In this document: positions 1-49,131 of the stretch, piece after piece
Layout: the number at the start of each line of letters is the position of its first letter
Position numbering within the stretch: the first letter of the stretch is position 1
Source: Asterionella formosa
Taxonomy: Eukaryota
Direction: 5' to 3'
Length of the DNA: 64,000 bases
NCBI GenBank assembly: GCA_002256025.1
Contig: NKIB01012903.1
Coordinates: forward strand, 1 to 64,000
Program-made: the position numbers and the translations under genes
Notes under the pieces: generated by a model
Database searches by the model: none
Told to the model about the DNA's origin: nothing
What the model saw: the letters and a program-made list of their open reading frames with translations, nothing else

Positions 1-1020
1 TCACATGAAACCGTTAAAAGTAATCTTTTTTACGTGAAGAGTGGCATTAATGCATGTGAAGTACCACATAATTAACACTCATACGTAGACGAAATTTCGA
101 AAAGTGGCGTATTTCGCGTCTTAGATGCAGGCAAGACCATGCAGGACCGTTAAGGAGTGTTGGAGTTGAACAGAACAATTGCTTATCAAAAAATTTGCGG
201 GAATCAAACCACGCAACTTCATATCAAAGGCAATGTGCTCAACCAACTACCATAAGCTAGAGAAATGAAGTGTGAATTTTGATGATTGCTTGCTGGTTTC
301 CTCATTGTCATTTGCATTATAGTATTGTTTTGGACAAGTTGCTTCTACTCAAATTTTTGTGGTGTGTTTGGTTTGCTGCCCAAGTTCACTGGTAGGGATT
401 GTTGAAATTTTTGGGCAGGTTTGTTCATCCAGTGATAGTAGCAAAGAACTCAGTTCTAATATCTGGGAGCCAATTCTGCAACAGAACATGACCAAATCCA
501 AAATGCCTTCGGAAATAAATTGGATGATACATTGCTCTTTTCAACTATTGACAAATTTGTGGGAGAAAAAACGAGATGAAAAGAATGCAGCAATTTATAC
601 AGGAACTTAAGTGATGCATAAAAAAACTTATTTTGACATGAATGCATTCATCAAGCAGTCCATGAATACTGCATTCATGGGACTAAATACATTGTGACAA
701 TTGTGCTCAGTCCTATTGAGCCTAAGGGTAGTTTCATCCATGATGACATCAATATTTCATACTTGCTTGAAAACAAGAAAATGATATGTAAAAGATTTGG
801 ACTTTGACGTGATCAGACGAAAAATATCAAAGCTAGAAACAATTCTTTAAATGTCATGGTTCCATTAGCTCCCATAGGCCACTATGATGAAAATTGTGTA
901 GAGTTGAGTTTTCTTGCATAGCAGCAAGATCAAACCATCACAATCATACCTAGAGTTGGATAACTATAAAAGAAATGTCATAAAACCAAAAATGATCATT
1001 TAAGAAATGTCAATAAATTC

Positions 1021-8411: not shown

Positions 8412-9733
8412 CTTGTATTAAAGTAAGTACTTTTTTTGAAAGCATATACAGGGAGAAATTTTATGAGACCGAAGTGTCGTGAGGCATCATCATGAGTCAT
8501 TAGTATACTGGTACGTAGCATACTACCGGTATTTGTGCATTTACCTGTACCTTCATCATCCATAATATTGAACAGTGCTTTTTTACGAGTTTTTGGTACA
8601 GGTCCTGTCATATTAATGCTCTACTTCAACCTCTCCAAATAGATACGGTACCTGGTACTCCCTGGTACCATTGCCTTGGTCACGAGGTGGTACTCTACCT
8701 GGAGTACCTGGTACCTAAGATACTACGGGACCTGTGCTCCGTCGCTAATTTTCGGTTCAACTCTTCGGTGGAGTTTATTTTAGTTACCCCGGGGGAACAT
8801 ATCACTATTTTAAATACCGTGTATATGCGACACTTACTCATAATTATGGTTTGAATGACAGGTCGTACGTATATCCGATCATGAATGTACTTGATTACCC
8901 CCTGGGGCAGACAAATTCGTTTTCTTGTCAGTCGTAGAAATTCCATTCCTTTACTTTCTCTTCAAGCACGATCAACATGCTAAATAAGAAAAAGAGCAAG
9001 CCAATTCTAACAAAGAAAGAATCATACATCTATTGAAACTTTGACCATATGTACAAGACTATACGTGAGATTTCTCCGGAAGAGCATATCACTGATGAGC
9101 GATATTGTTCATATTAGTAACGGTAAGTAAATGGGATGAGACATCCAGGATTTTTATTAATATGCACCGGTTTTTACTTGTCAATGACTACCAGTGGCAG
9201 ACAAATCCGTAATATTGCAGGCAGTCTACCCGTCTACAGGAATGTCCAAGCACGATCACCATGAGGCATTTAACCTTCTGTCGTTGAAGTAATATACCGG
9301 TAAAAGCAAGCAAAACGCAACAAGAACAGCAAATATTGTCGTATGAATGAAGGCAGTACACTCAAATTCCCATGACTCAAATTTTCTAATTTTTGATCTG
9401 GTGGTTACCAGCAAGAAATTTTGCTGAAAATGAGAACACGACATTGAAGGTCTGATGATTGTATTCATCTGTAGAAGTAGGGCGTAAACATCATGAGAGG
9501 TACACCGAAATACCTATAGCTACCGGTATTTGACAATGTGACGTCGAGCCTGTTCACGAGGAGATTCTGCTAAACCATTTTGCTCCTCCATAAAGAAGTC
9601 TATTGCCTTAAATATATAAATATTATAAAAGACAAACTTAGCCGCTGACGAGGGAAGTAATTGAAGATCAGCATTCAATTCCATGCTCAGAGTTACGAAA
9701 TAAAATTCCTATCAACTCCTCCTGTAAATTTGC

Positions 9734-10048: not shown

Positions 10049-10921
10049 TTATGCCAGCAATACCCGCTCAAGCAGGCATCCGAATTCATAGTCAGTATCC
10101 ACATCATCAATGATGTTCTTCGAGACGTGCGAAATTTCTTCAAGAAAAATTTCCATATCCTCATCGCTGAAAGGTTCACTTTCGGGTTTGATGAAATGAA
10201 ATGGTCTTCCTTCGAACAGGTCGGTATCTTCAAAATGAACCGACTTTTCATCATCAAAGGGCACAGAGAAGGTCTCAAGAGGTTTTTGATGCGACATACT
10301 TGTAGTAAATTCCGGAGTTATCGATCGTCCATTATCAATTGCAGGAGACATGGAATAAAAGTTGGGTTCGGCACTTGGGTCGCTTCGTGCTCTGACACCT
10401 GTTCCCTTGATCTTCATGCGATGGATCTTGAGTGTCAACGATTTCTTTCCCCTGAGAAAGAGTTCATGGTAGTATCCTCCTTTGTCCGGTCCTTTAGTCA
10501 AGCGGTTGAAGCCGTAAAGGTTGAGCTGACGTTGGAAGGAGGCGAACTTCGACTGCTTGAAGTACGCAGGCATCACCTTTTCGGTAAACTCCTTGTGATC
10601 GTGCACGACAAAGCATCTACCGTGTGGTTGCCAAGAAACAACATGGGCGAGGCCATCGTCTTCAATCTGATCGAGAAGCTCGTGCAGTCTGAGAGGGAAT
10701 ACAGTAGTCACACCTCCTTTTACGGAAGGCGATGAACCGACTTCAACTTCGTCGTCGTTCAAGTGATCGTGGTAGTTGTGAATGACGACATGGTGATGGT
10801 CAGGATCTGATGAGCTTCCTGCTGGTGACCAGAAGGAGATAGTAGGGAAGATCTCTGGCTTGCAGACAGAACATTCGACAGCATCTAGGCTTTCATTTCT
10901 GACTTTTCGTGAGATGCACAT
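10049..10921 (-). CDS. Heat shock factor (HSF-type DNA-binding domain), copy 2 (tandem paralog)
   Basis: Same motifs as copy 1. The DNA aligns to copy 1 at an offset of 2510 bp. Confidence 0.93.
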   Translation of the reverse strand: MCISRKVRNESLDAVECSVCKPEIFPTISFWSPAGSSSDPDHHHVVIHNYHDHLNDDEVEVGSSPSVKGGVTTVFPLRLHELLDQIEDDGLAHVVSWQPHGRCFVVHDHKEFTEKVMPAYFKQSKFASFQRQLNLYGFNRLTKGPDKGGYYHELFLRGKKSLTLKIHRMKIKGTGVRARSDPSAEPNFYSMSPAIDNGRSITPEFTTSMSHQKPLETFSVPFDDEKSVHFEDTDLFEGRPFHFIKPESEPFSDEDMEIFLEEISHVSKNIIDDVDTDYEFGCLLERVLLA

Positions 10922-13404
10922 CTGATGTTACTTGCGTGGGTGAAATAAATATACTTTATGTGCTTTCCTTGTTATATTTTATATTTACTTTAACATGTGT
11001 GGGAAGGCCATTTCTCTGTCCCTCAGATGATTGGCTAGTTCGTTTCAATTAGGCCCACAGTAGTACAAATACTCAATGAGTCTGTTCTTGTTGACAATGA
11101 CTTTTTTTTTTATTTAACCAATAAATATGTTCGTTTTGCTGATGTCGACGAAGGAATCGACGTATCTCTTACATCGTTGCCTTCTAATATTGAGTTGAGC
11201 ATGTGTGGATTCAACAATACGCGGTATACAGGTCCACTTCGCACTCCGAGTAAGAAGTGATCAAAATGAAACACATCCAAGTCCTTCCTTGTGTATATCC
11301 AACACCTCTAACCACCGTTGGATCCAAACCGGTACTCACGTATGTCGACGAGGTACCATTACTCTATCAATATTTCCGAAGATGTCTCTAAAGATTTATT
11401 TCCGGTATCTGTAGTTTATAATTTCCTTGGAATTTTACCTGTCACCAGGTACCAGGTACCGAGTGCAAGAATATTAAATCTAACAACAAGTACCGGTACC
11501 AATTCCGGTAATAGAAAGTTTCGGATAGTCTTTATGACTATGATATATTTGTGAAACCGGGGGGGCATTGTCATGTGACATCAAGATTCAAATTAAAAAG
11601 GTGATTCAAATTTTCGGAGATTCTTCATGACCATGATTTACAAAGACGACGAGGGGGCATTGTCCTGTGACATCATCATTTTTTTATGCAGCACAACTTC
11701 AACTAACGTCTGGGGGCTGGATGCAAATTCCAGAAATCGTGTAGCCTTGTATAGACCTGATATGCTATCAAGTAACTGGAACTTAAATATTATATAATTC
11801 GCGCGTAATAGTGTTGATCACCGTGGTGCTCACAGTCGTTGCTTTTTCTTGTTATTACGCTCTGCCCCTTCAAGGCCTGGCTAAAATATTGCAATTGTCC
11901 TGATGAGTAGAACTTAACTGAGAAAGGGCTGCTGCACATTAAGGCATTAGTTTTGACATAGTTCACATTTGAAAGTGCAAATACCTGCTTTCTCACCTAC
12001 AAGCAAATATTGCCAATAGAATGAGTAAATGCTCAGATAATAAATAACTTGTTTCAAATCTTTTGTTTGATTTCATCATGTTATTGTTTAAAAGTGCTTA
12101 GTAATCATATTACTTGTTGTGCAGCTTTTGTGAAGGTGTCTGAAAATGACATGAACAAATGTGCCTTTGATGAATTCAATTTTCATTGTCAATATTGGTG
12201 TTAAAAATTCTATGTTTCATGGAGATATTTGCTATTTTCGTCAGTGTCAAGGCTGAGACGAATTAATTAAGGATACTCAAGCCAAAACTCACAGCAACTT
12301 CTAGTACAATCGAGCAAAACCTAAACTGCTGCACCCAACTCTGCAGGTTGCAGTGGGCCTTTTGAAATGTTGGTGGTTGATCTTGCATGCCATTGATACC
12401 CACAGTTGTCTTTTTTGAAACTCTTTGTACGGTTGCACTTGCACTGTGACGCGACGAATTACTGCCATTGTTCCTTGATGAAAGCTGAGAGACACCAATC
12501 AGAGAGACACCAGAGGAGGGATCAGCCCTGCTGTCATCATCACTGGCGCCTTTATCGGCATCATCTTTTTTCTCTTCCTCATATTGGGATTGCAACTCTT
12601 GTTCCTGCTCGAGACGGCGACATTCTCGCAGCCTTGGGGAGGAAGGGACACCCTCTCTGGCTGGTCTCCTTTCCATAATGACCTACATCGGCTATTACTC
12701 TCAACTTTAATGAGCATGCATTTCAGGCTAAAAATATTTCTTTCTACAGACGTTGAGTATTCAACCAGTATCTACAAATGGCAATGCGGGTTACTTAAGG
12801 TACTACTACCACATAAAAATCTAAGCCACCGCTCCCGACATGACGACTTTTGAACTTTAAAGCCACCGCTAAATGGAGTAAACGCACGATTTAAACTTAG
12901 TTTGCAAGATACACTTATTATTGTAAAGAAAGCCTTGTTGCTCAGATATATTTATAGAGAGGAAATACTTACGTACTTGTATTGTTGCATTGTGTAAGTT
13001 GTAAAATAATCATTATGGCCCAAAGGTTTCTGTCAACGCGAAATTGCGGAAAATGAATATTTTCATGTTTTCCGTACTCTATTGAGCTGGCATCGCCTTT
13101 TATATATGTGTATATGTACAATAATAATAATATTCTTTCCATAGAATTAATTTAGTATAGTAAATAATGAGTGTACGACATCATTGTGCTTTCGAATACA
13201 CTAGTATGCACCAGAAGAATTTGGTGTTGATGCAAGCGCAAGATGTATATGTACGGTATCGCGCATAACAGGTAAAGTAATACGAAAAGAATTTCTGTAG
13301 TATAAACGGAGTAAAAATAATCACGGTTTGGGGGAAAATATATTTATGTACGGGTAGAAAAATATGCACTGGAAGCCACAGCTATGCAACAATCTTAATG
13401 ACTA

Positions 13405-15799: not shown

Positions 15800-16109
15800 C
15801 CTACGACAGGGACGTTCGTTCTTCGTCCTTTCTTGAGATGTTTTATAGAGAGTAAAAGGAAAGTTTCAACTTTTTTCTAGGGTTGGTACGGTACGAGCAA
15901 TATCAATGATTACCGGGTACATACGATTTGTCCGTCTACATAATAGTGGGCGCGCGCTCTGAGGATCTAAAACAATTGTTATATGATCATTAGACTGCAC
16001 AGGAGACGAAAAGTACCCAATTTGGAGGCATTTAGTACCGAATTTGGACTCCATTTTGGGATTTCGAGTTTTTATCGGTTTTTCTCTATGTCCAAAATCC
16101 GAATTTTGG

Positions 16110-16625
16110 TGTCCAAATTGGTAGCATTTCATTTTTACTACCAAATTGGTATCTATTGTTGGCATTAGGGTTAGGGTTGAAAACGATGCTACCAATTTGG
16201 ATCAAAATTGGTAGCAATTTTATTTTTACTACCAATCGGGTTTCAAAATTGGTATCAGTTGTTGGCGTTAGGGTCAGGTTTTGAATGTGGCTTGCTACCA
16301 ATTTGGATCCAAATTGGTAGTAATTTTATTTATACTACTACCAATTTGGTTTCCATATTGGTATCTATTGTTGGCATTAGGTTTTAGGGTTTGAAACATT
16401 GATAAGTTTACTTTTACTACTGATCGGGTTTCCAAATTGGTCTCTATTGTTGACATTAGGGATAGGATTTGAAATGTTGCTATCAATTTGGATCCAAATT
16501 GGCATCAATTTTATTTTTACTACTAATTGGGTTTCAAAATTGGTATCAATTGTTGGTGTTAAGGTTAGGTTTTGAATGTTGCTTGCTACCAATTTGGATT
16601 CTTGATTTCCAAATTGGTATCATTG
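16110..16625. repeat. Tandem array (units about 80-106 bp) with a 26-bp palindrome and TTAGGG-like motifs
   Basis: Perfect ctaccaatttggatccaaattggtag at 16295-16320, with variants at 16188, 16479 and 16585. Each unit ends in gttggcattagggttagggttg-like sequence. Confidence 0.9.
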
Positions 16626-16771
16626 ATATAAGTTACAAGATATATAATATGAAAGCTATGATATCGAAATCCAAATTGGTATCAGTAATACATATAGCCA
16701 GTATTATTTTAAAGGTAGTACTTTTTCTGAAATTGGAGAGGTCGAAATATAATTGGGGATGAAAATCAGAA

Positions 16772-19597
16772 TTGCAACCACCAAAAACAATCACATCAAC
16801 AATCGAACCAGAATCTCAACTAAACAGGAATCATCTAATCAACCATGATTCATTGCTGAAGTTGCTGCAGGAAGATATCTGTTGCAAAAGTTGTGTTAAT
16901 GCATTTGTAAATGAATATTGCAAACAATCACTTTGTGACTTTGTAATTTACTTTACATCAAATAGAAAACAAAAGCTGTCCATCGAACAGCAATTTAAAG
17001 CATTTCTAGACCAGGGAAGTATGCTTGACCAATCAATTGCATGCATGAACAAACCATTGATTGTTGTGTCTTCGGAAAATTTCGGCTTGGCAAGCGAATT
17101 CGAAGTCTCCTGTTTCACCTGTCAGGAAATTATTTCTAAACTCGAATCTGCAAGAAGCAACAACATTGATGACAATGGCGAGATAAAAAAACAAGGAATT
17201 AGAAGCAAAACACTTTTCTATCAACAAAGAGTTTATTTTGGGTTTTCATGAAGCCGGAATGGGACCAGCTGATGCAGATATCATTTGCTCTGCAATGAAC
17301 TTACCACTTACATTTGGATTTGGTCTACGCAAGGTAACTTTGGTGTTGTAGAGGAAATGGTAGGAACAGCCGAAATGGCTACAACAGCTCTTGCAGTGAA
17401 AGACGCGTGTCACGAAGAAATATATCAGACGCTCAATGTGCATGAACGAGGAGATTGGGCTGACAAAGGACGTGACTTTCAGTGGTGGAACAGTCTTACT
17501 ACTGCTACGGACCGCTTGTCTGTACTCAATATGCCGCGACTCACCGTTAGTTACGATATGGGCTGGCAGCAGCAATAAAGTGGGAATAAGTACAATTCTG
17601 TAATTGGACATGCTTTTTGTATTGGTGGCTACACGAAAAAGATACTAGACTATCGTGTGAAATCTAAAGTCTGTAAATGTGTAATGTGTGCGACAAGGCT
17701 ATACGGTACAAGAAAGTTGCTCCAAGAATCACCTAACTGGTGGTTCAAAGGCAATGGAACCAGACGCTGGTGTGTAAATGATGATTGATGCAGTTGCTAA
17801 GCACAATGTCATCTACTCAACAATCATCTGTGATGATGATTCTACTATTAGAGCTGTTTCCAAACGGTTCTATCAGGAGTTATTGAAACTACAGGCATCC
17901 TTCCACTGGCCAAGGACATTAAAAGGATTAAAAAAATCCGACAAAGGCTGATGCCTTCCGCTGAATATACCCAAACCTAAATATTTTTCTGACCCATCCT
18001 CCCACAGAATATGGGTCATACTCCGCTCTGCATTTCTGAAAGCCAATGACCCAGTCTCCCTAGAACTTCCTTCAAAAGCAGATTGCCTTCGACTAAAAAA
18101 TTATTATGTGGCCTGTATCAAGAAAAATCGCAACCTTGCTCTGACCGAATTCACTGAATCCTCCAAGGCACCAATCAACCACTTGTTTGGCTGCAATGAT
18201 TACTTGGTGCCCTGTAAAAGCAGGAAAAAATGTTAGCAACGGAAAATATCATGACAATGAAAAAGAAACGAAATTATATCAATGGTTGATGTTGCATGTT
18301 GCAACGAAAGTCGAAGGCGAAAAGCTGCTATCATTGCATCATCCCTTTGACAATCAGATTAATGAGCGATGCCATGAACAATGCAGTGTAATGACGATGT
18401 CCAAAAAACAAGGTGTTTGCTGGATCCGGTGGCCTGCAATAAGGTTCCTTTGGTTGCTGGGCAGCACACACAAGGAGCTACACAATACACAAAGGATGTA
18501 TACAAGCAATGTGGAAAATTGATGTCACAACTGCAAGAATCATTCTGGAGACAAAAGGAAAAGCAACGGAACGACGATGCAGCCTACAAAGCCCAATTTA
18601 AATCGAAAAGGAAATGAAACGAAAAATACATACCACATGATTTGCAACAGTCCAACAAGAAAGAAGGCAAGACAACAAATCAGGTAAGACTTACAAATCT
18701 GGTGTGGCACTAACAGAAAGTCATGAGACAGCAAGAAAGTCAAAATGATAATTCGTCAATATAAACATTGTGGCCAAAATGATCATCGAAGGGAAAGCTT
18801 CGCACTGTGTCCATTCTTTGAAGGCAGACTGTATTCTAGAACTGGTACACGTACGATCAGTGATGATCAGCTACCGGTAGTGGATGAAGAACCTGCAAAC
18901 ACGCCACAAAATGTTATATGTGCATCCAGTGGTGTGGCCAGCGCTGGTTTGCACGACCGCGCAAACCGGGCCAATCAAATGGAGGCAAGTAATTCATGTA
19001 ACCCAATCATATTATATATGTGAAAGCGGGCACTTACAATGGAATCTTTTGTACGGGAGATTTTACTACTAAATATTTTAGCACAAGACTACCATTCCGA
19101 TGATGATGTTTCGGCAATTATTGATTCTGATGCCGACATTTTGGATACCATTGGAAATGCCGAATTTTTGGAGGACGATAGCTCAACGTTGTTGGCAGGG
19201 TTTGAAGAAGAGTTAAGCACATAGGTAATCTTCATATAGCCCCAGCAGTTAACTTTCGGCGAGAAACTGCAGAAAGGAACTTCGGATATTTTACTAGGCC
19301 AAATAAACAAGTTGGCCCGGTAAAATCCACTATTTTAAGCATACTGTAGTTGAAAAACCGAAGTTCCTTTCTGCAGTTTCTGGCCAGATCCTATATACTG
19401 ACGTTATATAGAGTTGACCTTTACCCCTACTTCGATCAATGACTGTATCTAAGCATATGGAAAGGGTTTCCAATGGTGAAAGCTCCGAGTAGCGATATAA
19501 ATATTTATTTTAGATGTGAAAAGTATGTGTTTGATTAGTCTGATTCAATATTAGTTTTTCAACCCTACCCCTAACCCAGGGCTGACATGCAGGAACC
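16772..19597 (+). mobile_element. Decayed DDE DNA transposon (Mutator-like PF20700-type transposase; TTAA-flanked end suggests Kolobok), left end missing
   Basis: Fragmented frames: LTVSYDMGWQQ..GNKYNSVIGHAFCIGGYTKKILDYRVKSKVC, KAMEPDA, TIICDDDSTIRAV, CLRLKNYY..APINHLFG and a C-terminal HCGQNDHRR..CP knuckle, with many stops and frameshifts. The right end reads gctgacatgcaggaacc|TTAA (19597|19598). Confidence 0.85.
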
Positions 19598-26095: not shown

Positions 26096-26453
26096 AGGGA
26101 ATGGCTTAAAGTTTTAGCACATGTTGCCTTCTTGTTTGATCTGAGGCTGTGTGGTTCGATTCCCACAATTTTTTGAGAAGCAATTGTTGTATTCGAATTC
26201 CACACTCCTCACCGTCCCGCATGGTGGTCTTGCCCGGTGTGCAAGGAAAAGTGGGTTGTTGCCCCCCCCCCCACCACAAGCAGCTTGATTCGCCTTCCAA
26301 GGCGGTCGGAGTTTCTCCTGACGCTGCGGCTATGATGATCACCTTTCTCGAAGCACAAGTCTTGTCGGCAGGTGACACAATGAAATACTTGCCTAAAGAA
26401 ATAGGGTAGCACGAATGGGATATAAAAGAAACTAATTTTATATACCATTATTA
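26096..26453 (+). mobile_element. tRNA-derived SINE-like element, family 1 copy A
   Basis: Aligns along its length with 28434-28805. It has an A-box-like tggcttaaag, a B-box ggttcgattcc, a central C-run and an AT-rich tail. Confidence 0.75.
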
Positions 26454-28433
26454 GTCCTACATATGTAGCAACCAGTACCTAGTACCAGCATGTAATATTA
26501 TTCGCAACTAGCAAGTTGAGGTCATTTTGCGCATAGGGAAAACGTGACAACGGACTGGCGCTTATGTTCATCATTTGATATGATGGAGAACGTCTTCAAT
26601 TAATGAAAATCATCTATATCACAACTTTGTGATGTAAGTTTAATATTAATTATTCTTCCAAATTTGAAAAACGTCAAAATTTAAGTGAATGGCTTGAAAA
26701 AGCAAATGACAAAGACCAGTAAGCATAAGAATCAAAAGTTGCAAAAAGTAAGCAAATCTTACTTATTTTTCTTTATTTTCTCCAAACTTTAAATTCGCTC
26801 GCTTTTGCAGCCCAAGTGATGAAAACAACCTACCTTGATTAACTTTTTCAAAGGCATTGGGATTTGAAATTCATAGGAACTGCCAGCATCAGCCATGATG
26901 TCAACTATGCAGTATCACTATTAACATTCCGCCTCCTCTCCGCAAAAAATTCAAGTTATCAAGCCTCAAAGGCACAATTAGAAATGTAATGGTGTCTGAA
27001 ACTCTTCTGAACAGACAACATGATGAAAAGACACTCCATGACAAAAAGGAATGATTTGCACCAAGAAAATCTTTCTAATTGGTGTGAATGCACGAATAAA
27101 CATAAGCAAGGCATTAAATTTGGATAGAATTTCTACCAATTTGCAAAGATGGAAATGATACTGCTGCAAATGTTGAAGATGGAAATGTTACTAGAGAGGA
27201 GGAAGAGTACGGACCATCTAGAAGAATTTACCGCACTGCCTGACTGTAACACTGGTGTCAGGTGTCAGTTCTTGAACCCAGTGATACTAAGTTATAGATA
27301 ATATTCCTATCCAGATTCTGAGTACCAGTAGGCATTGAACAAAGGAGTCATTTTTTGGACAGTATCATTCGATGATAGTAATAATTACTTATTTTATTTT
27401 ATTGAATATAAATCATTGTACTATCTTTATGCACAATACATCCATAAGAATATCAGATTCTATGATGCTGATCAGGAAAGTAATTTTGGAATAGAAGATC
27501 AATGGATTTAAATCCAATAAGGTATCAATGACAGCTAAATGATGAGGGTTTAATTGACTTTCCTCATGAGAATAAATATATATATTTTTAAACATGAACT
27601 AACGCCACTAACTCAAAGTACTTAATTGGAAAATATAAAATTGTGATGCTACCAGCAGATGGTCCTAAAACTTTTGCTTTTAAAATAATATCCCAATTTA
27701 ACTGATTTAGTGTCATCAAATCTAGCTAGCAATTCTGTAGAACATTCTGATTGGGCATTCTGCTGAACACAATGCAAAACAGATTGGTTGTTCGATATTG
27801 GCTTTTTACGCTTTGCTTGTTGTGCGCGGGCGGGGTCTTTCAAGAACAAACTTCCCAAATTAGGTAACTCGTGAAAGAAACAATATAGGCAATCATTGTT
27901 GACTGTCTTGACCAAAATTTCAAGTGAAACTTGGCAAGAAGTAGTACCTCAAGGAAAAATGGTAAAACAACTTAATAAATAACGTTTGCCTGTACCGTAC
28001 TTGGCTTTTACATATCATTGAGTTCAAAATGAATTCACCTGGCTGGTTTACCCGCCATGTAAGCAAGATGCAACCATTTCAGTGACATGCAGTCAGAAGC
28101 AGGTCAATGCCTACATTTCCCAACTCCCCTTATGTACATAACCGCTCTTTGATACAGGTATAATCAAAATAAGCCTTCCTTGCGGATTCTTTTCAAAACA
28201 ATGCGTTTGTTCATCCTCATAGATTAATCATACATTTACTACTACAAGTACTTGTCACTGGCAGTGTTTGAAGTACATAATGCAAATGTGCACGAGTTGA
28301 AGACTCATTATAGGTAGAATCAGGGGTTCATTTACACACCACTCTACATATCTAGCGCTGCAAAATATTGTTATTATGACATCAACACCAGCAGTACTTG
28401 TATCATGGAAAAATAATATAATGCACATTGCTA

Positions 28434-28805
28434 CCAGGGAATGGCTTACGGTAGTTGGTTGAGCACGTTGCCCTTGATCTGAGGTTGTGAGGTTCGATTC
28501 CTGCAACTTTTTGAGAAGCAATTGTTGGGTTCGACTCCCACACTCCTTACCGTCCCGCACGGTCTTGCCTGGTGTGCAAGAAATAGTGGGTTGCCCCCCC
28601 CCCCCCCCTACAAGCAGCTTGTGCCGCCTTCCTAGGTGGTCGGAGTTTCCCCTAACGCTGCGGCTAAGACGATCATCTTTCGTGAAGGGTGGTTGGGGAC
28701 TCACCTACGCTAACAAAACTAGGGAAGCACAGGTCTATTCGGCAGGCAGCACAATGAATACTTGAAAAAGGGGAGTAGGAATGGGCTATAAACAGATTAT
28801 CATTT
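28434..28805 (+). mobile_element. tRNA-derived SINE-like element, family 1 copy B
   Basis: A-box-like tggcttacggtagttgg and two B-boxes (ggttcgattcc, ggttcgactcc). Flanked by TATAATGCACATTGCTA (28417-28433) and TATAATGTACATTGCTA (28806-28822). Confidence 0.82.
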
Positions 28806-28907
28806 TATAATGTACATTGCTAAAGGTGTAGATTTCGAACTTGAATTCCAATAGAAAAGTGTTGCACTTCAAAATTTTTCTCGAACCTGTACCTTGAGTT
28901 CAGAAAC

Positions 28908-30698
28908 CTAGTCTTTCCTGAGCATTTCAGCAAACCGACCTTGAATGTCAGTGCAAATGTAGTAATCCCACATTGCTCGCCAAAGCCACTTTTCCAGCTT
29001 TCTATCAAAGTTATCAACCTTTTCATAACCTCCTCCCTTACTCTGCCACCGATCCAGGCAAAAAGCGCAATCCGAAAGCAGCTGAATGACAACATACCTT
29101 AGAAGGAGACGTTTTACCTTCAGATCATTATCAAAGAGGTTCGTAACTAAGCCATCCAACACAGTGAGAAAGCAATTGTATACCTTAGGGATGACATCCT
29201 TAGTTTCCCTCGTCAGTGCCAACCTGTCTTCCACAATGACGAACCTTTTGATCCAACTGCCCTCTCCATTGTCGTCCATTCCAAGGGTGTGAAAGAATGA
29301 CATAAGGAACTTGGTCAAGAATGCTGGTACAGGCATCAAACTGGGTTCACCCAAATCAAACAACCAAAGAAACTGGGAGCTCAAAAACATGTTATGAATA
29401 CCAGCATCTGTCAAACCACATGTCCAGATACGCTGAATGGCCGCTTTGCTTGTGCAACCAACTGCTTCCTTCAGTAGAATATGCCACCAGAACTCATGAG
29501 AAACCAAGCCAGACGTACCCGCTTCTGGAAGGTCCAGAAACACTTGGTCCAGTCTAGATCCCTGACGAAGAAGTATTCCCAAATGTTTTGCAGGAATTTC
29601 CTCTGCCTGTGAAAGGAACAATTTATGGTCTCGGAACCAGTCCCCAAACTTTCTCAGCTTTACAAATCGACCTGAGATTGGATGGTAATTTTTCTTAATT
29701 GCATGGCCCACAAAGGCATCTGCTGTTGACGATAGATTTGCTGGACTGAAATCTGAGAAATCTTCTTTTTTGCAAGCCGCTTTGATGCTCTTCAGTTCAT
29801 CCCGAACCTGTTCGACAGCATCCTTTTCATGTTCATAAGTCAAGGCTTGCAGACATCGGACGACATCGGTAAATTCTGCAGCAAGCTTGTTTAGAAGATC
29901 ACCAGTGAGAAGGCCTTTTGCGTGTAATGTGGCTCCATTTATGGCATTCGGACCTCCAATAGTCTTTTGGGCCAAAGTTAACTTCCATAGATGAATATCT
30001 TGAAGTCGCTGAAGCTGACCGACAATTTTTGAAATAGCGCTGTATCCATCCTGTATTTTGCCACATACGAATCGTCCGTCAATGTAATCATCGAAACCCA
30101 GCACAAGAGATTTTTTTTCAGGCCTTTCTTCGAGTATAACTCCTGCTTCACAACCAGTGCGGCATAGTCGTATTCTATTCAATTGGAGGGAGAGTTCAAC
30201 TGCAGAGCCCATTGGTTCTGAGTTTTTGCGACTCTCCTTGGTATATCGGTTCAATACGACTGCGCATTTGAGCTTGTTCCAGAATTCGGCTCCTCTGTTT
30301 CTGAGGTGTGAGGGACTGACATAAATCATCCGGAACTCTGGAATTCTCGCTCGCATTTTCTGTGCTGATTGGTCGTGTGTATGTTTCTCTCGTTTGCGTA
30401 GTTCTTGCTGTATAACAGCCAATGCAAAGACTTCCTTTGTATCTTTAGGCCCCCCATGCTTCATAACGAGCGATCCAAGCGTGGGATGGAGCCCATGAAA
30501 AACAGTCACTCCAGAGCCACCCCCATACAGATGTGTGACTTGTTCGAGCGAAGCTGGTGCGAAGATATTCGGATGCAATTCCTTCCAATTCGCGTCTGGT
30601 TCGACCTGGAGGCTGCAGGTTCCATCCCGCTCTAACACAATCAAGAGGCCATGATCCTCTGGAATGTCCATACAGTCGCCTTTGCCAACATTTGCCAT
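28908..30698 (-). CDS. Uncharacterised protein (about 596 aa) with atypical protein-kinase-like motifs
   Basis: Long ORF, likely start MANVGKG at 30698. It contains YGGGSGVTVF, LVMK..E, GLTDAGIHNMFL and LWLFDLG in kinase-like order. Confidence 0.75.
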   Translation of the reverse strand: MANVGKGDCMDIPEDHGLLIVLERDGTCSLQVEPDANWKELHPNIFAPASLEQVTHLYGGGSGVTVFHGLHPTLGSLVMKHGGPKDTKEVFALAVIQQELRKREKHTHDQSAQKMRARIPEFRMIYVSPSHLRNRGAEFWNKLKCAVVLNRYTKESRKNSEPMGSAVELSLQLNRIRLCRTGCEAGVILEERPEKKSLVLGFDDYIDGRFVCGKIQDGYSAISKIVGQLQRLQDIHLWKLTLAQKTIGGPNAINGATLHAKGLLTGDLLNKLAAEFTDVVRCLQALTYEHEKDAVEQVRDELKSIKAACKKEDFSDFSPANLSSTADAFVGHAIKKNYHPISGRFVKLRKFGDWFRDHKLFLSQAEEIPAKHLGILLRQGSRLDQVFLDLPEAGTSGLVSHEFWWHILLKEAVGCTSKAAIQRIWTCGLTDAGIHNMFLSSQFLWLFDLGEPSLMPVPAFLTKFLMSFFHTLGMDDNGEGSWIKRFVIVEDRLALTRETKDVIPKVYNCFLTVLDGLVTNLFDNDLKVKRLLLRYVVIQLLSDCAFCLDRWQSKGGGYEKVDNFDRKLEKWLWRAMWDYYICTDIQGRFAEMLRKD

Positions 30699-32199
30699 CG
30701 ACAAGCTCGTCGGTTGTTCCGCTATTCTTGTTACGTCTGTTTCAAATCTAATGGCATTAGAAGATTGAAACACTATATATATTAGAATACCGTATGTTGG
30801 CAGTCTACTCACCAAATATAGATACCGGCATATAAAATATAAAAGTACCTCTGAGGCTAAACAATTAGCATACCGGTATGTATAGTACATAGGGTAGACT
30901 AGATATCGCGGTATGTTTGTACATACATAATGGTCTGGGGGAGATCGTAAACAAGAAATATCTGCATATTATACCTGTACCTGGTACCAGTACTAACTAT
31001 AGTATTCCTTACTATCACCGACGGTACTGGTGGTACCAGGTACTGGCACACCCAGATTCAGCCTGTCACCAACGAATCGTTTTTATTCAACTCCCCCTCC
31101 CCCATTTGTTTCCCCCTCTACTCCTACATACCTGGTACTTTTAGGAACTGTCCTACGCCGTACATACCGTATTCTTGTGTTTGATGAAACAAATATTGCA
31201 CAAGTGTTTTGTGTATATAGCCGACAGTACATAGAGTCTAACCATTTATGAAAGCAGTATCATCAGGCTTCCGCACAGAAGTGGGGTGACTCAAACTATG
31301 GTTTTAGTAGATTACCAGTCAACTACAGTGCTCATGACTGCCAATTTTTGAAAGGAAAGCAGCAAAAAAAACTAATATTTCTGGAATGGGCAAAATATCG
31401 TTTTATTGCATCAAAGGCAATTACTGACACAGGATGAACATCATATCAAACATATTTCACTTGCAGGACATACACCAGACACATCCACTGCCAGAACTGT
31501 GGCTAAAAGGGAGCACTTTATCATAAAATTCTCCAAATGACATGAGAAGTGCAGTCAGAGTATCAAAAACAGCTACTGCAATTGCTTTTAATGCATACTT
31601 TCCACAAAAGGAAGTGACCAGTACCCAAACCTTCCACCACCCCACCTTCTTTGGGATATGGAGCGCAGCCAGCGACTGCACATCTAGAAATAGAGTTTTA
31701 AGAATGCGCTAATAAAATGCTTTAACATACATATAAACAAGTCGTTTGATGAATCATAAACACCAACATTTCCTGAACATTTGGAATATTTGACATTATT
31801 GATGAAACACTTCAAGAAACGATCCATAGTTATCATGGCATCTTATCCTTGTTGTCCTCATTTTTGTCCAGGAAGTGACAATGGCATAAGTTACTACCAA
31901 TTAAAGTGTACCAGGAGTCTACAGGTGAGTCTACATTGTTCTCTGGTGAAGGGGTACCTCCTCCCACCATGGCGGACGCGCCATTTCCCCTTAACAATAT
32001 GACGGTACAGGAGCATACCCTATATGTGACACCTACACCGGCATTTCACGATTTATTGAATACGGCCGGAACAGAGAAAACGACTAGTATACAATGATTG
32101 ATTTCGAAGTGGAAACACAGTTTCCTGCTGGCCCTCCATTTAATCCACTCTACGAGGATGACACAAAACAAAAACAGACGACTCGCAATGGCGATACTC

Positions 32200-39337: not shown

Positions 39338-40337
39338 GGTCCCTGTATTTCAACCTAGATTAGAGTTAGGGTTATAAACAAAAATTAAGTCAGAGATTTC
39401 ACCAATGTGCACCATTTCCATGTGCTTAGATACAGTCTTCTGACAAAGTAGAGGTATAGGCCAATGCTATATATATATTGTCAGGATATAGGATCTGTCG
39501 AGAAAGTGCAGAAAGGAGCTTCGGTTTTTCATTATGCTGAAAATAGTGAATGATACTACTAGGCCAACTCGTTTATTTAGCCTAGCTGAAAAACCAAAAG
39601 TTCCTTTCTGCACTTTTTGCCGAAAGTTAACGTCTGGGGCTATATGAAGCTGACCTATGTACTCAACACTTCTTCAAACCCTGCCAACGTTGGGCTATCC
39701 TCGTTCGAAAATTCGACAATATTGGCCTGCTTTTCAACGGTCTCCAAAATGTTGGAATTAGAATCACCAATCGCCGAAATGTCATCATCGGAATAAGAGT
39801 CTTGTGATTCAATTTTTCGTCCTACAATCTTCTGTGCAACAAATTCTACTTAAGTGCTCAATTCACTATAAATTTTTTGATTGGTCAAGTTCAATTACTT
39901 ACCGATATTTGATTGGCCCAGTTTGTAAGGTCTTGCAAACCCACACCGGACACACTGGATACACAATTAAAATTTTCTTGGGTGATTGGAGTTACGCCAG
40001 TACGACCATATCCACTACTGGTACCAGTAGATGATTATCATTTGACATATGCGTACTACCACTCCTAGGGTGCACTGCAAATAATTGCTGAGCCGCTGGG
40101 TCTATTAACACATAAACCGTCGATCAGTGAGTAGTGTTTATACCGGTATATATAGAGAGATGTACAATCTTTATCTATATATTTAGCAAATTCGAAAAGG
40201 GATCTATGCACATACGCGCATATTTTTACTGAAATCATGTCATTTAAATATAGCTCGTAAAAGTTCTTCTTTCCAAGGAATTTCGGCAACCCTAAGCAAT
40301 TTTATAATTCTTGCCTAAGGGTTGAAATGCAGAAACC
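39338..40337 (-). mobile_element. Non-autonomous 1.0-kb derivative of the TTAA-flanked DNA transposon
   Basis: TTAA|ggtccctgtatttcaacc ... ggttgaaatgcagaaacc|TTTA gives imperfect 18-bp TIRs. About 39340-39960 is the reverse complement of about 18920-19597. Confidence 0.85.
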
Positions 40338-40400
40338 TTTAGCAAATGGACTTAAGGTTTCAGCAAAATTTTGCTTGAACTAGACAAACATAGTCCTTAA

Positions 40401-42195
40401 GGTTCCTGCATTTCAACCCTTAGGCAAAAATTATTATATTGCTAAGGGTTGCCGAAATTCCCTGGAACTAAGAATTTATGGGAGCTATTTTTAAATGACA
40501 TGATTCCGTTTGAATTATTCAAATCAGTGGAAATTTGCGCGTACGTACCTAGATTCCTTTTTGAAATAGCTAAATATATATAGACATTGTGCATTACTGT
40601 ATGTATATGTACCGACAATTATTTTTCTTATAGATGACCCGGCGGCTCGGCAAATATTTAAAAGTGTAATCAACGAGTGGTACCAGGTACCACACGTTTG
40701 ATGTCCAATGATGATAATCTACTGGTACCCGCACTGGATATAGTACCAGTAAAAACTGCCATGACCCATTGAGAATATTTTTGAACTGCCGTGACCCATT
40801 GAACGCAGAATAACACGTTTTGCAATCAAAACTTAAATAAAAATAGATTTTGAGAGTTCTGGCTCCTTCCCGAGCATGTAGGCTAGTCAGCCATGTAATT
40901 AGTTTGAGATTTGGAGCAAATTGTTCATCTCGATAGATTGCCTGAAATGGTCGATCGACCGAAAAACCATAAAGAACACGGATTAGGGTAATTTTAGAAG
41001 TTACCGCATCATATGATATTAGACGATCAATATAATGATTTGAACCTTCATCTCATTTGCGACAATATAGTATATCTTATCTTGGTTTTGACTTCTGCGG
41101 AGATGGAAAATTATTTAGGCGTCATCATCATGCAAATGCGTTATGTATGATTTCGGGTATACCAGGTACGGAGTACATACCAAGTTTTCATCGTACCTTT
41201 CTAATAACACGCATGACAAGTGCTTTAACACATGACTTAATCCGTCCTCGAAAATGTCTATAAATTTATATTCGTTTATCTAGAAAAAAGTATATACTGC
41301 CATGACTTATTGAAATCACTTTTAAGCTGTTTTATTATCATCATATCTTCTGATGAAATCGTTCTATCAGAATTCTAACACGACAGCTTGATTGATCGAT
41401 GCAGCTTTGACACTTTCGAACAAACGGAACCGCAATTCGGTAGAATTTACCATCAGTCGGAGGAGTTAAACAAACACCCTAACTCAATGAGTCATGGCAG
41501 TTTTTTACTGGTACCGGCCTACCGGAACACCCAAAGAAATGTTACACGTGTATCCAATGTGGCCGGTGTGGGTTTGCAATTCCTCTCACAATCAAACGGA
41601 GTCGAGTTTTTCGCCATAGCTAATCAGGACATATATAATACTGCGCGCATTTACAATGGAATTTTTGATACTGGAAATTTTATCACTAAATATTGCATCA
41701 CAAGACTACCATTCCAATGATGACATTTCGGCGCTAAGTGGTTCTGATTCCGATATTTCGGAGACCGTAGAAAAGGCCGATTTTGTCGAATTTTTAGACA
41801 ATGATAGATCAACGTTGGCTGGGTCTGAAACCGATTTAGATACATAGGTAACCTTCAAATAGCATCGGTATATAAATTACTTCTGGCGAGAAACTGCAGA
41901 AAGGAGCTTCGGTTTATTTACTATGCCAAGCAAATAAAGTGATTTCCCCCGAAATTTCTGGTCTTTATAGCATAGTTCAAAAACCGAAGTTCCTTTCTGC
42001 AATTTCTCGCCAGATCCAATATCCTGACGATATATAGCGTTGACCTGTGCCCCTAATTTTGTCAATGACTGTATCCAAGCTTATGGAATGGGTGTATATT
42101 GGTGAAATCTCCGTTTAGCGTTATACATATTCAATTTATACGTGAAAAGTATGTGTTTGATTAGTCTGACTCAATATTAATTTTTAAACCCTACC
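40401..42195 (+). mobile_element. Internally deleted derivative of the same transposon family, right terminus lost
   Basis: Starts TTAA|ggttcctgcatttcaaccc. A remnant LEVTASYDI lies near 40995, and 41550-42195 aligns with 18920-19570. Confidence 0.82.
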
Positions 42196-42281
42196 TCGAG
42201 CAAGCAACCTTTTATATGTGTTTGATTAGTCTGACTCAATATTAATTTTTAAACCCTACCTCGAGCAAGCAACCTTTTATA
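42150..42281. repeat. Perfect 65-bp tandem duplication
   Basis: tatgtgtttgattagtctgactcaatattaatttttaaaccctacctcgagcaagcaacctttta occurs twice, at 42150 and 42215. Confidence 0.95.
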
Positions 42282-46358: not shown

Positions 46359-48121
46359 TGTGTCGTGAGCCTGAGAAAGTAGCTATGGAAATTAGTTCTT
46401 CATTGTTATTCGATAATGTGAAGTTACTTAAATTATGTAATTGTCTCATTTAAACCACTATTGTTTAAGTTAGAAATGTAGCGGCTTGATTGTAACAGCT
46501 GGTTTTGCAAGAGCACGTATCATGCCACTATACACTCAGTTGTAATTATTTGGTTCCCAAATCGCATTTGTTGGCGCTACAGGGACTGAGATTTATTATT
46601 AACCATTTGCTCATTGCAGATACCATACCGATCAAAGTATTAGTACTACTATTTACTCTTATCCATCTCTCGCTCTCTGTGCTTCTTGTACTATTACTTT
46701 TTAACATTTATAATTAGTCAAGTGATCAACCAATTACATTCCTTCATGATAGGGTACTACCTTCCTTTACTTTGTCCTTGAACTCATAAACTATGACTGT
46801 TAACATGCACCCAACATAGGTTGAATAACACACTGTTTCTTTTATTGTAATCACATTGAAGGCATGCGGAAACAGTAGGAAATGGGGTAAAAAGTCCCAA
46901 CCAAGTGCGTTCAATTTTGTACCACTGTAGGCCTACATAAATAATAGATTCACTACGAATGTCTAGTAGCCTGCTTAGGTACCAGGTACCACAGGTACCA
47001 CCAGTACCTGGGACCTGGTAACTGCTGAGAGTTGAGAGTATGTTACCATGGTACCTGTACCAGGTACGAGGTACTGGTAACCTGTGCTCGTCATCTACAT
47101 ACCGGTTGCGATGACCAACAGTCGACTAAACACATGATTTCATTCTGCTATAATGAGCTGGACAGTATAGACTATTTGGATGACCAATAGTTTGAATCAA
47201 ACAATCAATGGTTATACACTCATGATCAATAAGTGTGAGATAGACATGGGTCTATCTATGATTTTATGTTCTGACAAATGCAAACAGCATTTGGAAAAAT
47301 AGTTTGTTTGATTACTCAAACTGAACAAACCTAACTAGTTTGCTTAGTAACTCACAATAAGAATCTAGAAACGTAATAATGTCTCAATCTATAGTCTTCT
47401 TTGTCTAACGATAGATCTATCAACTGAAAGGTAATGCTTTAACACCATGTAGTATATTAGAGGCTGTGTGGACGAGGTATACCAGGTAGCTCTGTGGGTA
47501 TTCGCTTCTCTCATATGAAGAATGATCAGGATGAATCAAGAAACTACAAGCCCAGACATGTGTTTACAAATCCTGAGGATTTTGCAGTGTGTCCAATCAC
47601 TGCTTTGTTTGAGTACATGTGTGTCAACCCAGATAGTATCCAAAACCCAGATGGGCCACTCTTTCCAGGTGCAAATCAAGAGGATCGCTTTAGAAAGATT
47701 CTCAAGCACCTTTTCAAGAAGCATGAGAGGAATTTAGATGGGTATGATATTGATGAACTAGGCACCCACAGCATACGCAAAGGTGCAACAACTTATGCTT
47801 CCAGTGGATCAATAGCAAGCCCATCAAGTGTTGCCATTAATAACCGTGGGGGTTGGACTCTAGGCAGTGTCAGAGATGTCTATATGCTGTATGAAAAAGC
47901 AGGTGACCATTATGTTGGTCGCATTTTAGCTGGGTTACCATTACTCTCAGCTTGGTATCCTGTTTCTGAGCTAAATTTTTGGGTGAAATGCCCATGTAAT
48001 GATAGTGCCATACAAGACCAGTTGATTCTTGATGGAAAGGTTCTTGCTGGCTTGTGGGCCTTATTTGGTGATGTGCTTCATCGACAAGTAGCTCTCATTC
48101 CATTTCTACAAGTGAGTCTTG

Positions 48122-48339
48122 AGAAATTTGATGACATTGCCATCATCGTCAATGTATTCACTTTTCTTTTGAAGAACAAACCGTTCAGAGAACTTGGTCA
48201 AAATCTTGTCAGTTGTCAAGAACTCCACAGAACCCTCATTCTTATTGATGGACAAAATCTTGGGAACCAAATCGGACGCCACTTCTTCTGGTTGGGCAGC
48301 CAGCACACCAAATGGAAACTTTTGAAGTTCGGGGGTAGA
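48122..48339 (-). pseudogene. Inserted fragment resembling the C-terminus of a NOL/NYC1-like short-chain dehydrogenase
   Basis: The minus strand reads STPELQKFPFGVLAAQPEEVASDLVPKILSINKNEGSVEFLTTDKILTKFSERFVLQKKSEYIDDDGNVIK without stops. Excising it restores the Crypton frame (QVSL-ACVLHH). Confidence 0.65.
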
Positions 48340-49131
48340 CTTGTGTGTTGCATCACATGAGAATCTACAAATACTGGGAAAGGATAAAACATCATCGATG
48401 CATTTAACAGGAGTGTGTACATCAAATGAAATTGCAGCACTTTCAGATCAGGTTGTTGTTCGATATCCATTTGAAGAAAAGGATTTTTTTGCAATTAAAT
48501 TGACTGGCATTCTTCTACATGTTGCGCACCTTGCTGCCATAGAGCAAATGAGAGGTGACTTTCTCCGACTTGGTCCATCATTGCTTAGTGATTTTGAGAA
48601 AAATGCTCAATGATCGAACTTATGCTGGTGTAATTTCAGAAAATCGAATGGAGGCCATCATGGAAAAAATTATTGGGCAAAAGCTCCTTGGGTTGACTGA
48701 ACGACTAGACCAAGCAGCAACAAGGAATTATGCTGCATCAAACAACCACCCAACAACTCCAAACAACCAGAAATCATCCTCCCATCTGTTTTTGCATCCT
48801 CATGATGGATTTTTCCGGAGAGTTCCAGTTGGATGGCAGTTCCCGCTTTGTGCTGTAGCTGTTGCTTACTGTTTATGGCATATGGGAGATGATAGGAATA
48901 AAATTGGTCCATTACAGTTTTTAGACAATCGTGATGTCAGTTTTGAGGCTGTCACAAGGGCGAATGCTTACGGTGCCAATGGTGAGGAGCAAGGTGTTGT
49001 CTGGAAAGGATGCAAAAGGGGTATCAAGTATTTAGACAATGAAAAGATTGGATGGCAGAGCAAAAAATCGAGGCTTCCTGCAACCTCCATTTACAAGAGA
49101 AAATGTGGTCCTTGTTGCTCTTGAGCAATGC

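What the first reader, a model, noticed from the sequence alone, without database searches (positions are those of the whole stretch)
26096..28822. tRNA-derived SINE family with two B-boxes and a 17-bp target duplication
Seen: two colinear copies of about 360 bp (26096-26453, 28434-28805), each with an A-box-like TGGCTTA.., a B-box GGTTCGATTCC, a second B-box about 35 bp later (intact in copy B, degraded in copy A), a GC-rich body with a C-run, and a TATAAA..CATT tail. Copy B is flanked by a 17-bp direct repeat with one mismatch. Established: a Pol III internal promoter plus a long variable TSD indicates a SINE inserted by LINE machinery. Inference: a diatom SINE family; to my knowledge SINEs are poorly documented in this group.
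Basis: partly seen in the sequence, partly recalled or inferred. Interest (0 to 1): 0.72.

Follow-up and report, generated by a model that had tools for sequence, protein, structure and literature searches.

The report
Diatom SINE sharing a LINE's tail
These are two copies of a short, tRNA-headed jumping element with hundreds of copies in a freshwater diatom; its end resembles the end of a resident LINE retrotransposon that probably copied it, a familiar arrangement little described in diatoms, with one oddity: a stop signal for its presumed polymerase sits inside it.

Summary
Confirmed, with small coordinate corrections. Both copies belong to a dispersed family of about 360-375 bp with fixed ends and several hundred copies (110 exact tail and 96 head matches; rough estimate 600-750). 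Variable target-site duplications flank 39 of 65 full-length copies, against 9 of 1500 controls; no inverted termini, no coding frame. The head is tRNA-like; the parent tRNA is unresolved.

New here: the last 65 nt match the 3' end of a decayed resident LINE with reverse transcriptase and RNase H (66-76% identity, a shared GAAA hairpin, similar 16-18 bp duplications). A younger poly(A) LINE does not match. Partnership is inferred, not shown.

Oddity: a T6-T7 run follows the first B-box. It is as long as or longer than the run behind any of 20 nuclear tRNA genes, yet none of 83 copies ends there. Pol III transcription is untested.

Doubled B-boxes and internal T4-T5 runs are published for animal SINEs; diatom SINEs are reported only as annotation classes in the papers I read. 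The scan noted what seems to be this family, and SINE-LINE tail sharing in this genome, on other DNA before. A new member of a known kind.

The parts
26096..26438 (+). SINE copy A (subfamily II type: short A-box region, AACTAATTT-type end); 40-bp deletion after 26349; end branch 0.13
26102..26112 (+). Degraded A-box of copy A
   Evidence: sequence, family alignment
26153..26163 (+). First B-box of copy A
26169..26174 (+). Internal T6 run of copy A, followed by G (terminator-like)
26190..26200 (+). Second B-box of copy A, degraded
26372..26438 (+). LINE-like 3' tail of copy A with the GAAA hairpin (2-nt insertion)
28417..28433 (+). Left target-site duplication of copy B (17 bp)
   Evidence: run X9 has the matching allele at 28424
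28436..28805 (+). SINE copy B (subfamily I: 6-nt insertion in the A-box region, GATTATCATTT-type end); two extra bases (28434-28435) lie between TSD and element
28442..28458 (+). A-box region of copy B with the subfamily I insertion
28491..28501 (+). First B-box of copy B
28508..28512 (+). Internal T5 run of copy B (family mode is T7; most related contigs have T at 28507)
28528..28538 (+). Second B-box of copy B, intact
28744..28805 (+). LINE-like 3' tail of copy B (5-bp deletion just before the GAAA hairpin)
28806..28822 (+). Right target-site duplication of copy B (17 bp)
128..257 (-). Third, truncated copy of the family (head and both B-box modules only, 85% to copy B)
31527..31722 (+). Old fragment of the candidate partner LINE's 3' end (67% identity, E 8e-7); related, not part of either SINE copy

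Best explanation
A tRNA-derived SINE family of a freshwater diatom, about 360-375 bp long with several hundred copies, spread in bursts from a few source elements. Shown: dispersed copies, fixed ends, a tRNA-like head with A- and B-boxes plus a second B-box, no coding frame, variable TSDs, and a last 65 nt that resemble the 3' terminus of a resident, now decayed LINE with reverse transcriptase and RNase H. Inferred: the LINE protein recognised that tail (a stem closed around a GAAA hairpin), nicked AT-rich DNA and copied the SINE RNA in place by target-primed reverse transcription, leaving duplications of about 16 bp. Also inferred: the RNA was made by Pol III from the internal boxes, with a fraction of transcripts reading through the internal T6-T7 run. 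The second B-box most likely arose by a local duplication of the 3' half of the head.
For: Copy number: 41 matches among 40 scored of 757 candidates, 39 of them non-self at 85-93%; 110 tail and 96 head pattern matches, controls 0; 13 overlaps between 100 tail and 86 head hits give a rough estimate of 627 for that part of the list. TSD score of 10 or more in 31 of 50 distinct sites (32 of 51 before merging L177/L178) against 9 of 1500 mismatched-flank controls, and in 8 of 15 further copies; TSD start lies 13-24 nt before the element, median 16, in 29 copies. Head against 36 genomic tRNAs: best local score 64, shuffled maximum 51 of 300. A profile of 51 SINE tails over 116,836 bases of LINE-bearing DNA puts its five best hits (E 1.3e-4 to 4.9e-3) at LINE-type 3' ends; two body profiles give none. 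In 151,319 control bases the only hit under E 0.4 is itself a LINE-tail piece; the young poly(A) LINE gives none. Identity to these ends is 66-76% over 59-64 ungapped columns. LINE domains: RNase H E 4.6e-5, over cut-off; RT E 1.3e-5. LINE copies carry perfect 16-18 bp TSDs (L272, L278; L299, L300). 37 of 41 SINE tails keep all four hairpin pairs. Star-like tree, median end branch 0.065.
Against: No Pol III transcript was seen; only contigs were available. The T-run is 5 or longer in 51 of 65 copies, mode 7, and usually followed by G (23 of 28), while the first T-run behind 20 nuclear tRNA genes is 4-6: a Pol III transcript should often stop there. Identity to the best tRNA is 46 of 69 (67%), only just above the shuffled maximum of 65%; ARAGORN and Rfam see no tRNA in the window copies. 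The tail match is short and diverged; of the five best-scoring ends only L301 has RT frames, L299 and L300 are deleted derivatives, L302 and L303 are unclassified pieces, and the other LINE subfamily scores only E 0.14-6.6. The RT hit is under Pfam's cut-off (25.5 against 29.6 bits). Only two pairs change on both sides, no more than in shuffles (499 of 500), and I drew the structure from these same sequences. None of 15 5'-truncated SINE copies has a TSD scoring 10. No empty site was seen in four runs. 26 of 65 full-length copies have no TSD at threshold.
Confidence: 0.8

Rival explanations
1. The element is LINE-mobilised, but its full-length RNA comes from Pol II (host read-through or flanking promoters). 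The tRNA-like head and its T-run are a captured, complete Pol III unit that yields only a 70-nt RNA or nothing. It would work like a SINE in insertion but fail the Pol III part of the definition.
For: The T6-T7 run sits where a tRNA gene has its terminator and is at least as long as all 20 native ones. It persists in all three tree groups. Six of 80 copies lost it by unrelated deletions and none has a sister in the sample. A poly(A)-library contig of the neighbouring gene reaches 58 nt into copy B, so Pol II transcripts can overlap copies.
Against: The 5' end is fixed at the first bases of the tRNA-like head in nearly all full-length copies, as expected of an internal promoter; read-through RNAs would carry varying upstream flank. 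The overlapping transcript is antisense to the SINE. Mollusc SINEs carry internal T4-T5 runs and are read as Pol III read-through (PMC4758252, passage).
Confidence: 0.1
2. It is a SINE, but it was mobilised by another LINE (for example the young poly(A)-ended APE-RT family in this assembly, or one not found), and the tail likeness is an old relic.
For: The tail identity is only 66-76% and every RNase H LINE copy examined is broken. A young family with open frames of about 1000 aa and 98-99% identical copies exists. The RT profile search scored only 150 of 224 candidates and did not list the RNase H LINE, so other LINEs may be hidden.
Against: The young LINE ends in an A-run and shares nothing with the SINE. 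The SINE ends in TTT without an A-tail. SINE copies are 7-15% diverged, similar to the 84-93% identity among many RNase H LINE copies, and both have TSDs of similar length.
Confidence: 0.07
3. A non-autonomous DNA transposon (MITE), solo LTR, Helitron piece or segmental duplication with a chance tRNA-like start.
For: ARAGORN and Rfam do not call a tRNA. A few copies share flanks, as duplicates or alleles (L008, L010, L014; L081, L094).
Against: No terminal inverted repeat, no TG...CA ends, TSD length varies from 10 to about 20 bp, and most flanks are unrelated. From established knowledge, cut-and-paste and LTR elements give short TSDs of fixed length and Helitrons none.
Confidence: 0.03

Closest known systems
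tRNA-derived SINEs (SINE2/tRNA of Repbase; SINEBase definition, PMC3531059, passages read)
   Same: Under 700 bp, interspersed, over 100 copies, tRNA-like head, body, LINE-like tail, variable TSDs.
   Different: No parent tRNA could be fixed; Pol III transcription is untested; no diatom entry is mentioned in that paper (0 occurrences of 'diatom').
Stringent SINE-LINE pairs with a shared 3' end, in particular plant Au-like SINEs and RTE LINEs (PMC6007223, abstract and passages read); eel UnaSINE1/UnaL2 is recalled, not read
   Same: Shared terminal sequence with a predicted hairpin, SINE ends in TTT without poly(A), TSD mostly begins with T or A.
   Different: No T-stretch ten bases before the TSD (44 T of 145 at -12 to -8, background 31%). 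TSDs centre on 16 bp, longer than the 7-15 bp given there for RTE. The candidate partner carries RNase H and a Cys/His knuckle; its clade was not determined (the diatom Ambal clade is a recalled lead; one search shows only the name in a Repbase list).
SINEs with a doubled B-box: jerboa Dip_a2 and Dip_b2, rodent B1 (PMC8466645, passages read); mosquito Twin (title in a reference list only)
   Same: A second B-box from a probable internal duplication (23 of 33 nt identical between the modules).
   Different: Longer spacing (37-38 nt against 7-16 bp duplications), present in all subfamilies, with a T6-T7 run between the boxes and no second A-box.
Mollusc Vhc and Snail SINEs with internal T4-T5 runs (PMC4758252, passage read)
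   Same: A potential Pol III terminator inside the element.
   Different: There the runs are 4-5 long and followed by C, the context said to favour read-through; here the mode is 7 and G follows (23 of 28).
Putative SINEs of Phaeodactylum tricornutum (13 pieces, 1,454 bp; PMC5859163), also listed for Cyclotella cryptica and Skeletonema costatum (PMC8147415, PMC7466962; passages read)
   Same: Same element class in a diatom.
   Different: In the passages read they are software-assigned classes without anatomy or partner LINE. I could not compare sequences; their supplements were not read and may hold more.

Membership tests
SINE (SINEBase definition) | Short (<1 kb), interspersed, non-tandem repeat | tested here: met
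   360-375 bp; copies on many contigs with unrelated flanks
SINE (SINEBase definition) | [quoted passage not shown] | tested here: met
   110 exact tail-word matches alone; rough estimate above 600; some hits are allelic or duplicate contigs
SINE (SINEBase definition) | At least 60% identity to a tRNA over at least 60 nt | tested here: met
   46 of 69 (67%) to two tRNA-Ala genes, but shuffled heads reach 57% on average and 65% at most; local score 64 against shuffled maximum 51; tRNA set incomplete (36 distinct genes)
SINE (SINEBase definition) | Non-autonomous (no coding frame) | tested here: met
   No conserved frame; only chance stop-to-stop stretches overlap the copies; many indels among copies
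SINE (SINEBase definition) | Transcribed by Pol III from the internal promoter | not testable with these tools
   Only contigs were served; A- and B-boxes present; an internal T6-T7 run argues for at least partial early termination
Non-LTR retroposon (TPRT insertion) | Variable-length TSDs, no terminal repeats | tested here: met
   39 of 65 full-length copies against 9 of 1500 controls
Non-LTR retroposon (TPRT insertion) | 5'-truncated copies bounded by TSDs | tested here: inconclusive
   0 of 15 truncated SINE copies reach score 10; these look like later decay. Two truncated LINE copies do have perfect TSDs
Stringent SINE-LINE pair | SINE 3' end homologous to the 3' end of a resident LINE | tested here: met
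   66-76% over 59-64 columns, at the terminus of both; controls
Stringent SINE-LINE pair | Shared stem-loop in the tail | tested here: inconclusive
   86% of cells paired against 78% shuffled and 19-47% slid, but only two pairs change on both sides and the structure was drawn from the same sequences; the consensus fold of the LINE ends did not recover it
Stringent SINE-LINE pair | Mobilisation in trans depends on the shared tail | not testable with these tools
   Needs a retrotransposition assay
RTE-related SINEs (Au-like) | T-stretch about 10 nt before a TSD that starts with T | tested here: not met
   T at -12 to -8 is at background (44 of 145); the first five TSD positions are 86% A or T (29 copies)
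Dimeric SINE (Twin type) | Two complete tRNA-like units, each with A- and B-box | tested here: not met
   Second module covers only the anticodon-loop-to-T-arm part; 15 nt between the T-run and the second B-box leave no room for an A-box
Ambal-clade LINE (for the candidate partner) | RT phylogeny placing it in the clade | not tested
   No reference sequences on hand; searches gave only a name in a table

The most novel reading that the evidence does not exclude
A SINE that carries a working Pol III terminator right behind its own tRNA-like head: most transcripts from hundreds of loci would be a 70-nt tRNA-like small RNA, and only rare read-through (helped perhaps by the second B-box or by the long hairpin predicted around the T-run) gives the mobile RNA, a built-in brake kept through three waves of amplification. 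Together with the shared tail it would be a SINE paired with an RNase H-bearing diatom LINE, a pairing not found in the papers I searched.
Probability: 0.2. Interest if true: 0.62.

Novelty: new member of a known kind. Interest (0 to 1): 0.42.

Why it matters
In the papers read, diatom SINEs are only lines in repeat tables. This family gives one with full anatomy, subfamilies and a candidate partner LINE, which extends the shared-tail rule to diatoms if confirmed. Hundreds of insertions with clean TSDs are usable as presence/absence markers among strains, and copy B overlaps the end of a host transcript. The internal T-run makes Pol III termination in diatoms directly testable: either this polymerase reads through seven T, or the element is not fed by Pol III as assumed.

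Tried and rejected
Young APE-RT LINE as partner: found with the RT profile, followed to its A-run end; no tail likeness; rejected. Weaker RT hits were Gypsy elements and telomerase. The endonuclease profile PF14529 gave 0 of 42 candidates, which shows no absence. Looking upstream of 40 of the 110 tail-word hits found no LINE frame; the exact word is SINE-specific. Parent tRNA: Ala, Asn, Gly and Lys score alike; a Gln-like reading, recalled from memory, was tested with a pattern and all 88 hits were SINE heads; unresolved. Head-only monomers ending at the T-run: 0 of 83. Empty site for copy B: none in runs X2, X6, X9, X11; contigs show presence only. TSD for copy A: not significant. The control pool held a LINE-tail piece (L125) and two observed rows held SINE sequence, so those scores were dropped and the test was redone with profiles. 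The PDB search for host identity was uninformative. A metagenome scan with a 30-nt word found one further copy, 96% identical (L306), too little to state a range. Literature searches that found no description of this family or of a diatom SINE-LINE pair; the library lacks most subscription journals and Repbase Reports.

Full report
Observation. The two copies are there. Copy A runs 26096-26438 and copy B 28436-28805, both on the plus strand. Each starts AGGGAATGG, has a B-box, a T-run, a second B-box 37 nt after the first, a GC-rich body and an AT-rich end. Copy B is flanked by a 17-bp direct repeat (28417-28433, 28806-28822, one mismatch). A third, truncated copy lies at 128-257 on the minus strand.

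Host. The window holds eukaryotic genes (SBDS, HSF, FMO domains). A plastid contig of the same assembly encodes a PetD identical to that of a named diatom, and the runs that hold the stretch are labelled mostly freshwater or algal. I take the host to be a freshwater diatom.

Family size and ends. Copy B finds 41 matches among 40 scored of 757 candidates; 39 non-self matches are 85-93% identical. An exact 17-nt tail word occurs 110 times and a head pattern 96 times, with 0 for reversed controls. Thirteen overlaps between the first 100 tail hits and the 86 head hits on the same range of contigs give about 630 loci; this is rough, and some hits are alleles or duplicate contigs. An alignment of 26 copies shows fixed 5' and 3' ends and two main types, differing by a 6-nt insertion in the A-box region and by the last ten bases. 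A tree of 52 copies is star-like, with three weakly supported groups and a median end branch of 0.065; B falls in one group, A in another.

Target-site duplications. Of 51 full-length copies with flanks, 32 score 10 or more; L177 and L178 are one site, so 31 of 50, copy B included. Mismatched-flank controls give 9 of 1500. Eight of 15 further copies pass: 39 of 65 in all. For the target profile I dropped L178 and two doubtful cases (L013, L075). In the remaining 29 the TSD starts 13-24 nt before the element (median 16) and its first five positions are 86% A or T against 62% in flanks; the T-stretch at -10 described for RTE-related SINEs (PMC6007223, abstract and passages) is absent. There are no inverted termini. 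In public runs the left junction of B is spanned by contigs of X2 and X9; the X9 contig has T at 28424, which makes the two repeats identical. No empty site was seen.

Head. ARAGORN and Rfam do not call a tRNA. Against 36 tRNA genes from 30 of 62 tRNA loci, the head scores 64 at best, shuffled heads 51 at most. Identity is 46 of 69 to two tRNA-Ala genes, which meets the SINEBase rule (PMC3531059, passages) but only just exceeds shuffled heads (maximum 65%). The parent tRNA stays open. The two B-box modules share 23 of 33 nt in register; other offsets reach 15 and genomic tRNAs reach 20 against the second module. That favours a local duplication, weakly. Doubled B-boxes are known in jerboa Dip and rodent B1 (PMC8466645, passages).

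Partner LINE. The RT profile gave one young APE-RT LINE ending in an A-run, Gypsy elements and telomerase; none shares sequence with the SINE. Earlier notes of this scan pointed to a LINE with RNase H. An RNase H search found it. It is dispersed with a fixed 3' end, all copies examined are broken, an RT frame scores E 1.3e-5, under the curated cut-off (Atlas hits to RT clusters at 0.92-0.93), and one copy spans 7.27 kb between 18-bp repeats. The last 65 nt of the SINE align to its last 65 nt at 66-76% for the closer LINE subfamily. A profile of 51 SINE tails, run over 116,836 bases around LINE copies, puts its five best hits at these ends (E 1.3e-4 to 4.9e-3) and the next two at second tail-like pieces; two body profiles hit nothing, and a head profile gave four weak hits elsewhere. 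Controls: in 151,319 other bases the only hit under E 0.4 is a LINE-tail piece, and the young LINE gives none. Limits: only one of the five (L301) has RT frames; two are 940-nt deleted derivatives with the LINE's 5' start; the other subfamily scores E 0.14-6.6. LINE ends have TSDs like the SINE's: 2 of 25 pass near the mapped 5' end (17 and 18 bp, perfect; controls 0 of 115), and a wider search without a control found 16 of 16, 16 of 16 and 17 of 18 matches among 14 ends.

Tail structure. SINE and LINE tails can both form a 4-bp hairpin with a GAAA loop inside a 6-bp stem. 37 of 41 SINE tails with an intact loop keep all four pairs, and the loop-closing pair is A-T, T-G or T-A by subfamily. 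On a joint alignment 86% of cells pair, against 78% shuffled and 19-47% slid, but only two pairs change on both sides, as in shuffles. I drew the structure from these sequences and the changes are few events, so this is a hint.

The internal T-run. Right after the first B-box stands a T-run: 5 or longer in 34 of 42 and 51 of 65 copies (the sets overlap), mode 7, followed by G in 23 of 28. All 20 tRNA genes on nuclear-type contigs have a T-run of 4-6 within 25 nt, against 15% for random windows; by established knowledge these are Pol III terminators. So the SINE carries a terminator-like signal at least as strong as the native ones. Yet of 83 head-anchored copies (83 of the 96; the other 13 were already in hand) 50 reach the tail, 19 pass the run and stop later, 9 meet a contig end, 5 stop at positions 32-89, and none ends at the run. 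Six of 80 lost the run by deletions with different breakpoints (read by eye). Mollusc SINEs have internal T4-T5 runs followed by C, explained there as read-through (PMC4758252, passage); this case is longer and lacks the C. The fixed 5' end favours Pol III with partial read-through, but nothing here tests it.

Transcription. Only contigs were served. A poly(A)-library contig of the neighbouring minus-strand gene (frame 28908-30968, no Pfam hit) extends to 28748, 58 nt into the tail of B, antisense to it. Contigs cannot show true ends, and this says nothing about Pol III.

Mechanism. Shown: anatomy, dispersal, TSDs, tail likeness. From established knowledge of non-LTR elements: variable TSDs of this length come from target-primed reverse transcription, and shared 3' ends mark LINE partners. 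Inferred: the RNase H LINE supplied the enzymes, Pol III made the RNA, and a few source copies amplified in waves. The family looks old: copy B is shared with a strain about 3% different in the next gene, and no intact partner was found.

Known and new. SINEs are reported in diatoms: 13 putative pieces in Phaeodactylum (PMC5859163, passages), and classes in Cyclotella and Skeletonema (PMC8147415, PMC7466962, passages; PMC12803021, passages, lists SINEs in Pleurosigma). I read passages, not whole texts or supplements, which may hold more. Searches found no description of this family or of a diatom SINE-LINE pair; subscription journals and Repbase were out of reach. Earlier notes of this scan describe what seems to be the same 350-385 bp family, and tail sharing with an RNase H LINE for a SINE of this genome; a look-up by sequence returned nothing, so the identity of families is not established. 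These notes are leads, not support.

Verdict. A real tRNA-headed SINE family, a new member of a known kind, with a plausible partner LINE and one testable oddity. Interest 0.42.

Noticed in passing
window 31527-31722 (+): Old 3' fragment of the RNase H LINE (67% identity), upstream of the gene next to copy B.
   Followed up: partly
window 28748-30968 (-): Gene of 686-aa open stretch with no Pfam hit; a poly(A)-library contig runs into the tail of copy B, so the SINE may form part of its 3' untranslated end.
   Followed up: partly
L299 and L300 (G000:C14770, G000:C1503): Two 940-nt elements, 88% alike, with the LINE's 5' start and 3' tail and different perfect 16-bp TSDs: an internally deleted non-autonomous LINE derivative.
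   Followed up: partly
L287 (G000:C15018:13000-22200), about 1714-8986: Apparently full-length decayed LINE of 7.27 kb between 18-bp repeats; useful for defining the family.
   Followed up: partly
L031-L044, L101-L120: Young APE-RT LINE (56% GC, copies 98-99% identical, A-run end) on small contigs, in nested or tandem arrangement and beside telomere-type repeats in L116 and L117.
   Followed up: partly
L121 (G000:C10287), 1058-aa frame on the minus strand: Looks like telomerase reverse transcriptase, by eye and a weak RT profile hit.
   Followed up: no
window 7503-8417 and 10049-10927 (-): Tandem duplicate of an HSF-domain gene, 96% identical over 300 nt (Pfam tested for the first copy only).
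   Followed up: no
window 18930-19590, 39390-39985, 41528-42280: Three copies of a repeat of about 650 bp with internal inverted repeats, two of them facing each other across a long palindrome at about 40005-40744; MITE-like.
   Followed up: no
window 16100-16700: Array of 100-110 bp units built on a short palindromic core.
   Followed up: no
window 47461-48360 (+) and 56513-57034 (-): Decayed frames that look like a tyrosine recombinase (by eye; no Pfam hit) and a Plavaka transposase (E 1e-4).
   Followed up: no
target sites of 29 SINE copies: T excess 17-20 bases before the TSD start (59 of 116 against 31%); seen after the fact and not tested on new copies.
   Followed up: no
L071 (G000:C1555) and L187 526-588: Diverged relatives: one has the body and tail behind a single B-box with a different upstream part, the other has the head on a different body. 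They may be related SINE families.
   Followed up: no
L066 and L087; L064, L072, L082, L083: SINE tail pieces carried inside another repeat, and another repeat sitting at different points within or beside SINE copies.
   Followed up: no
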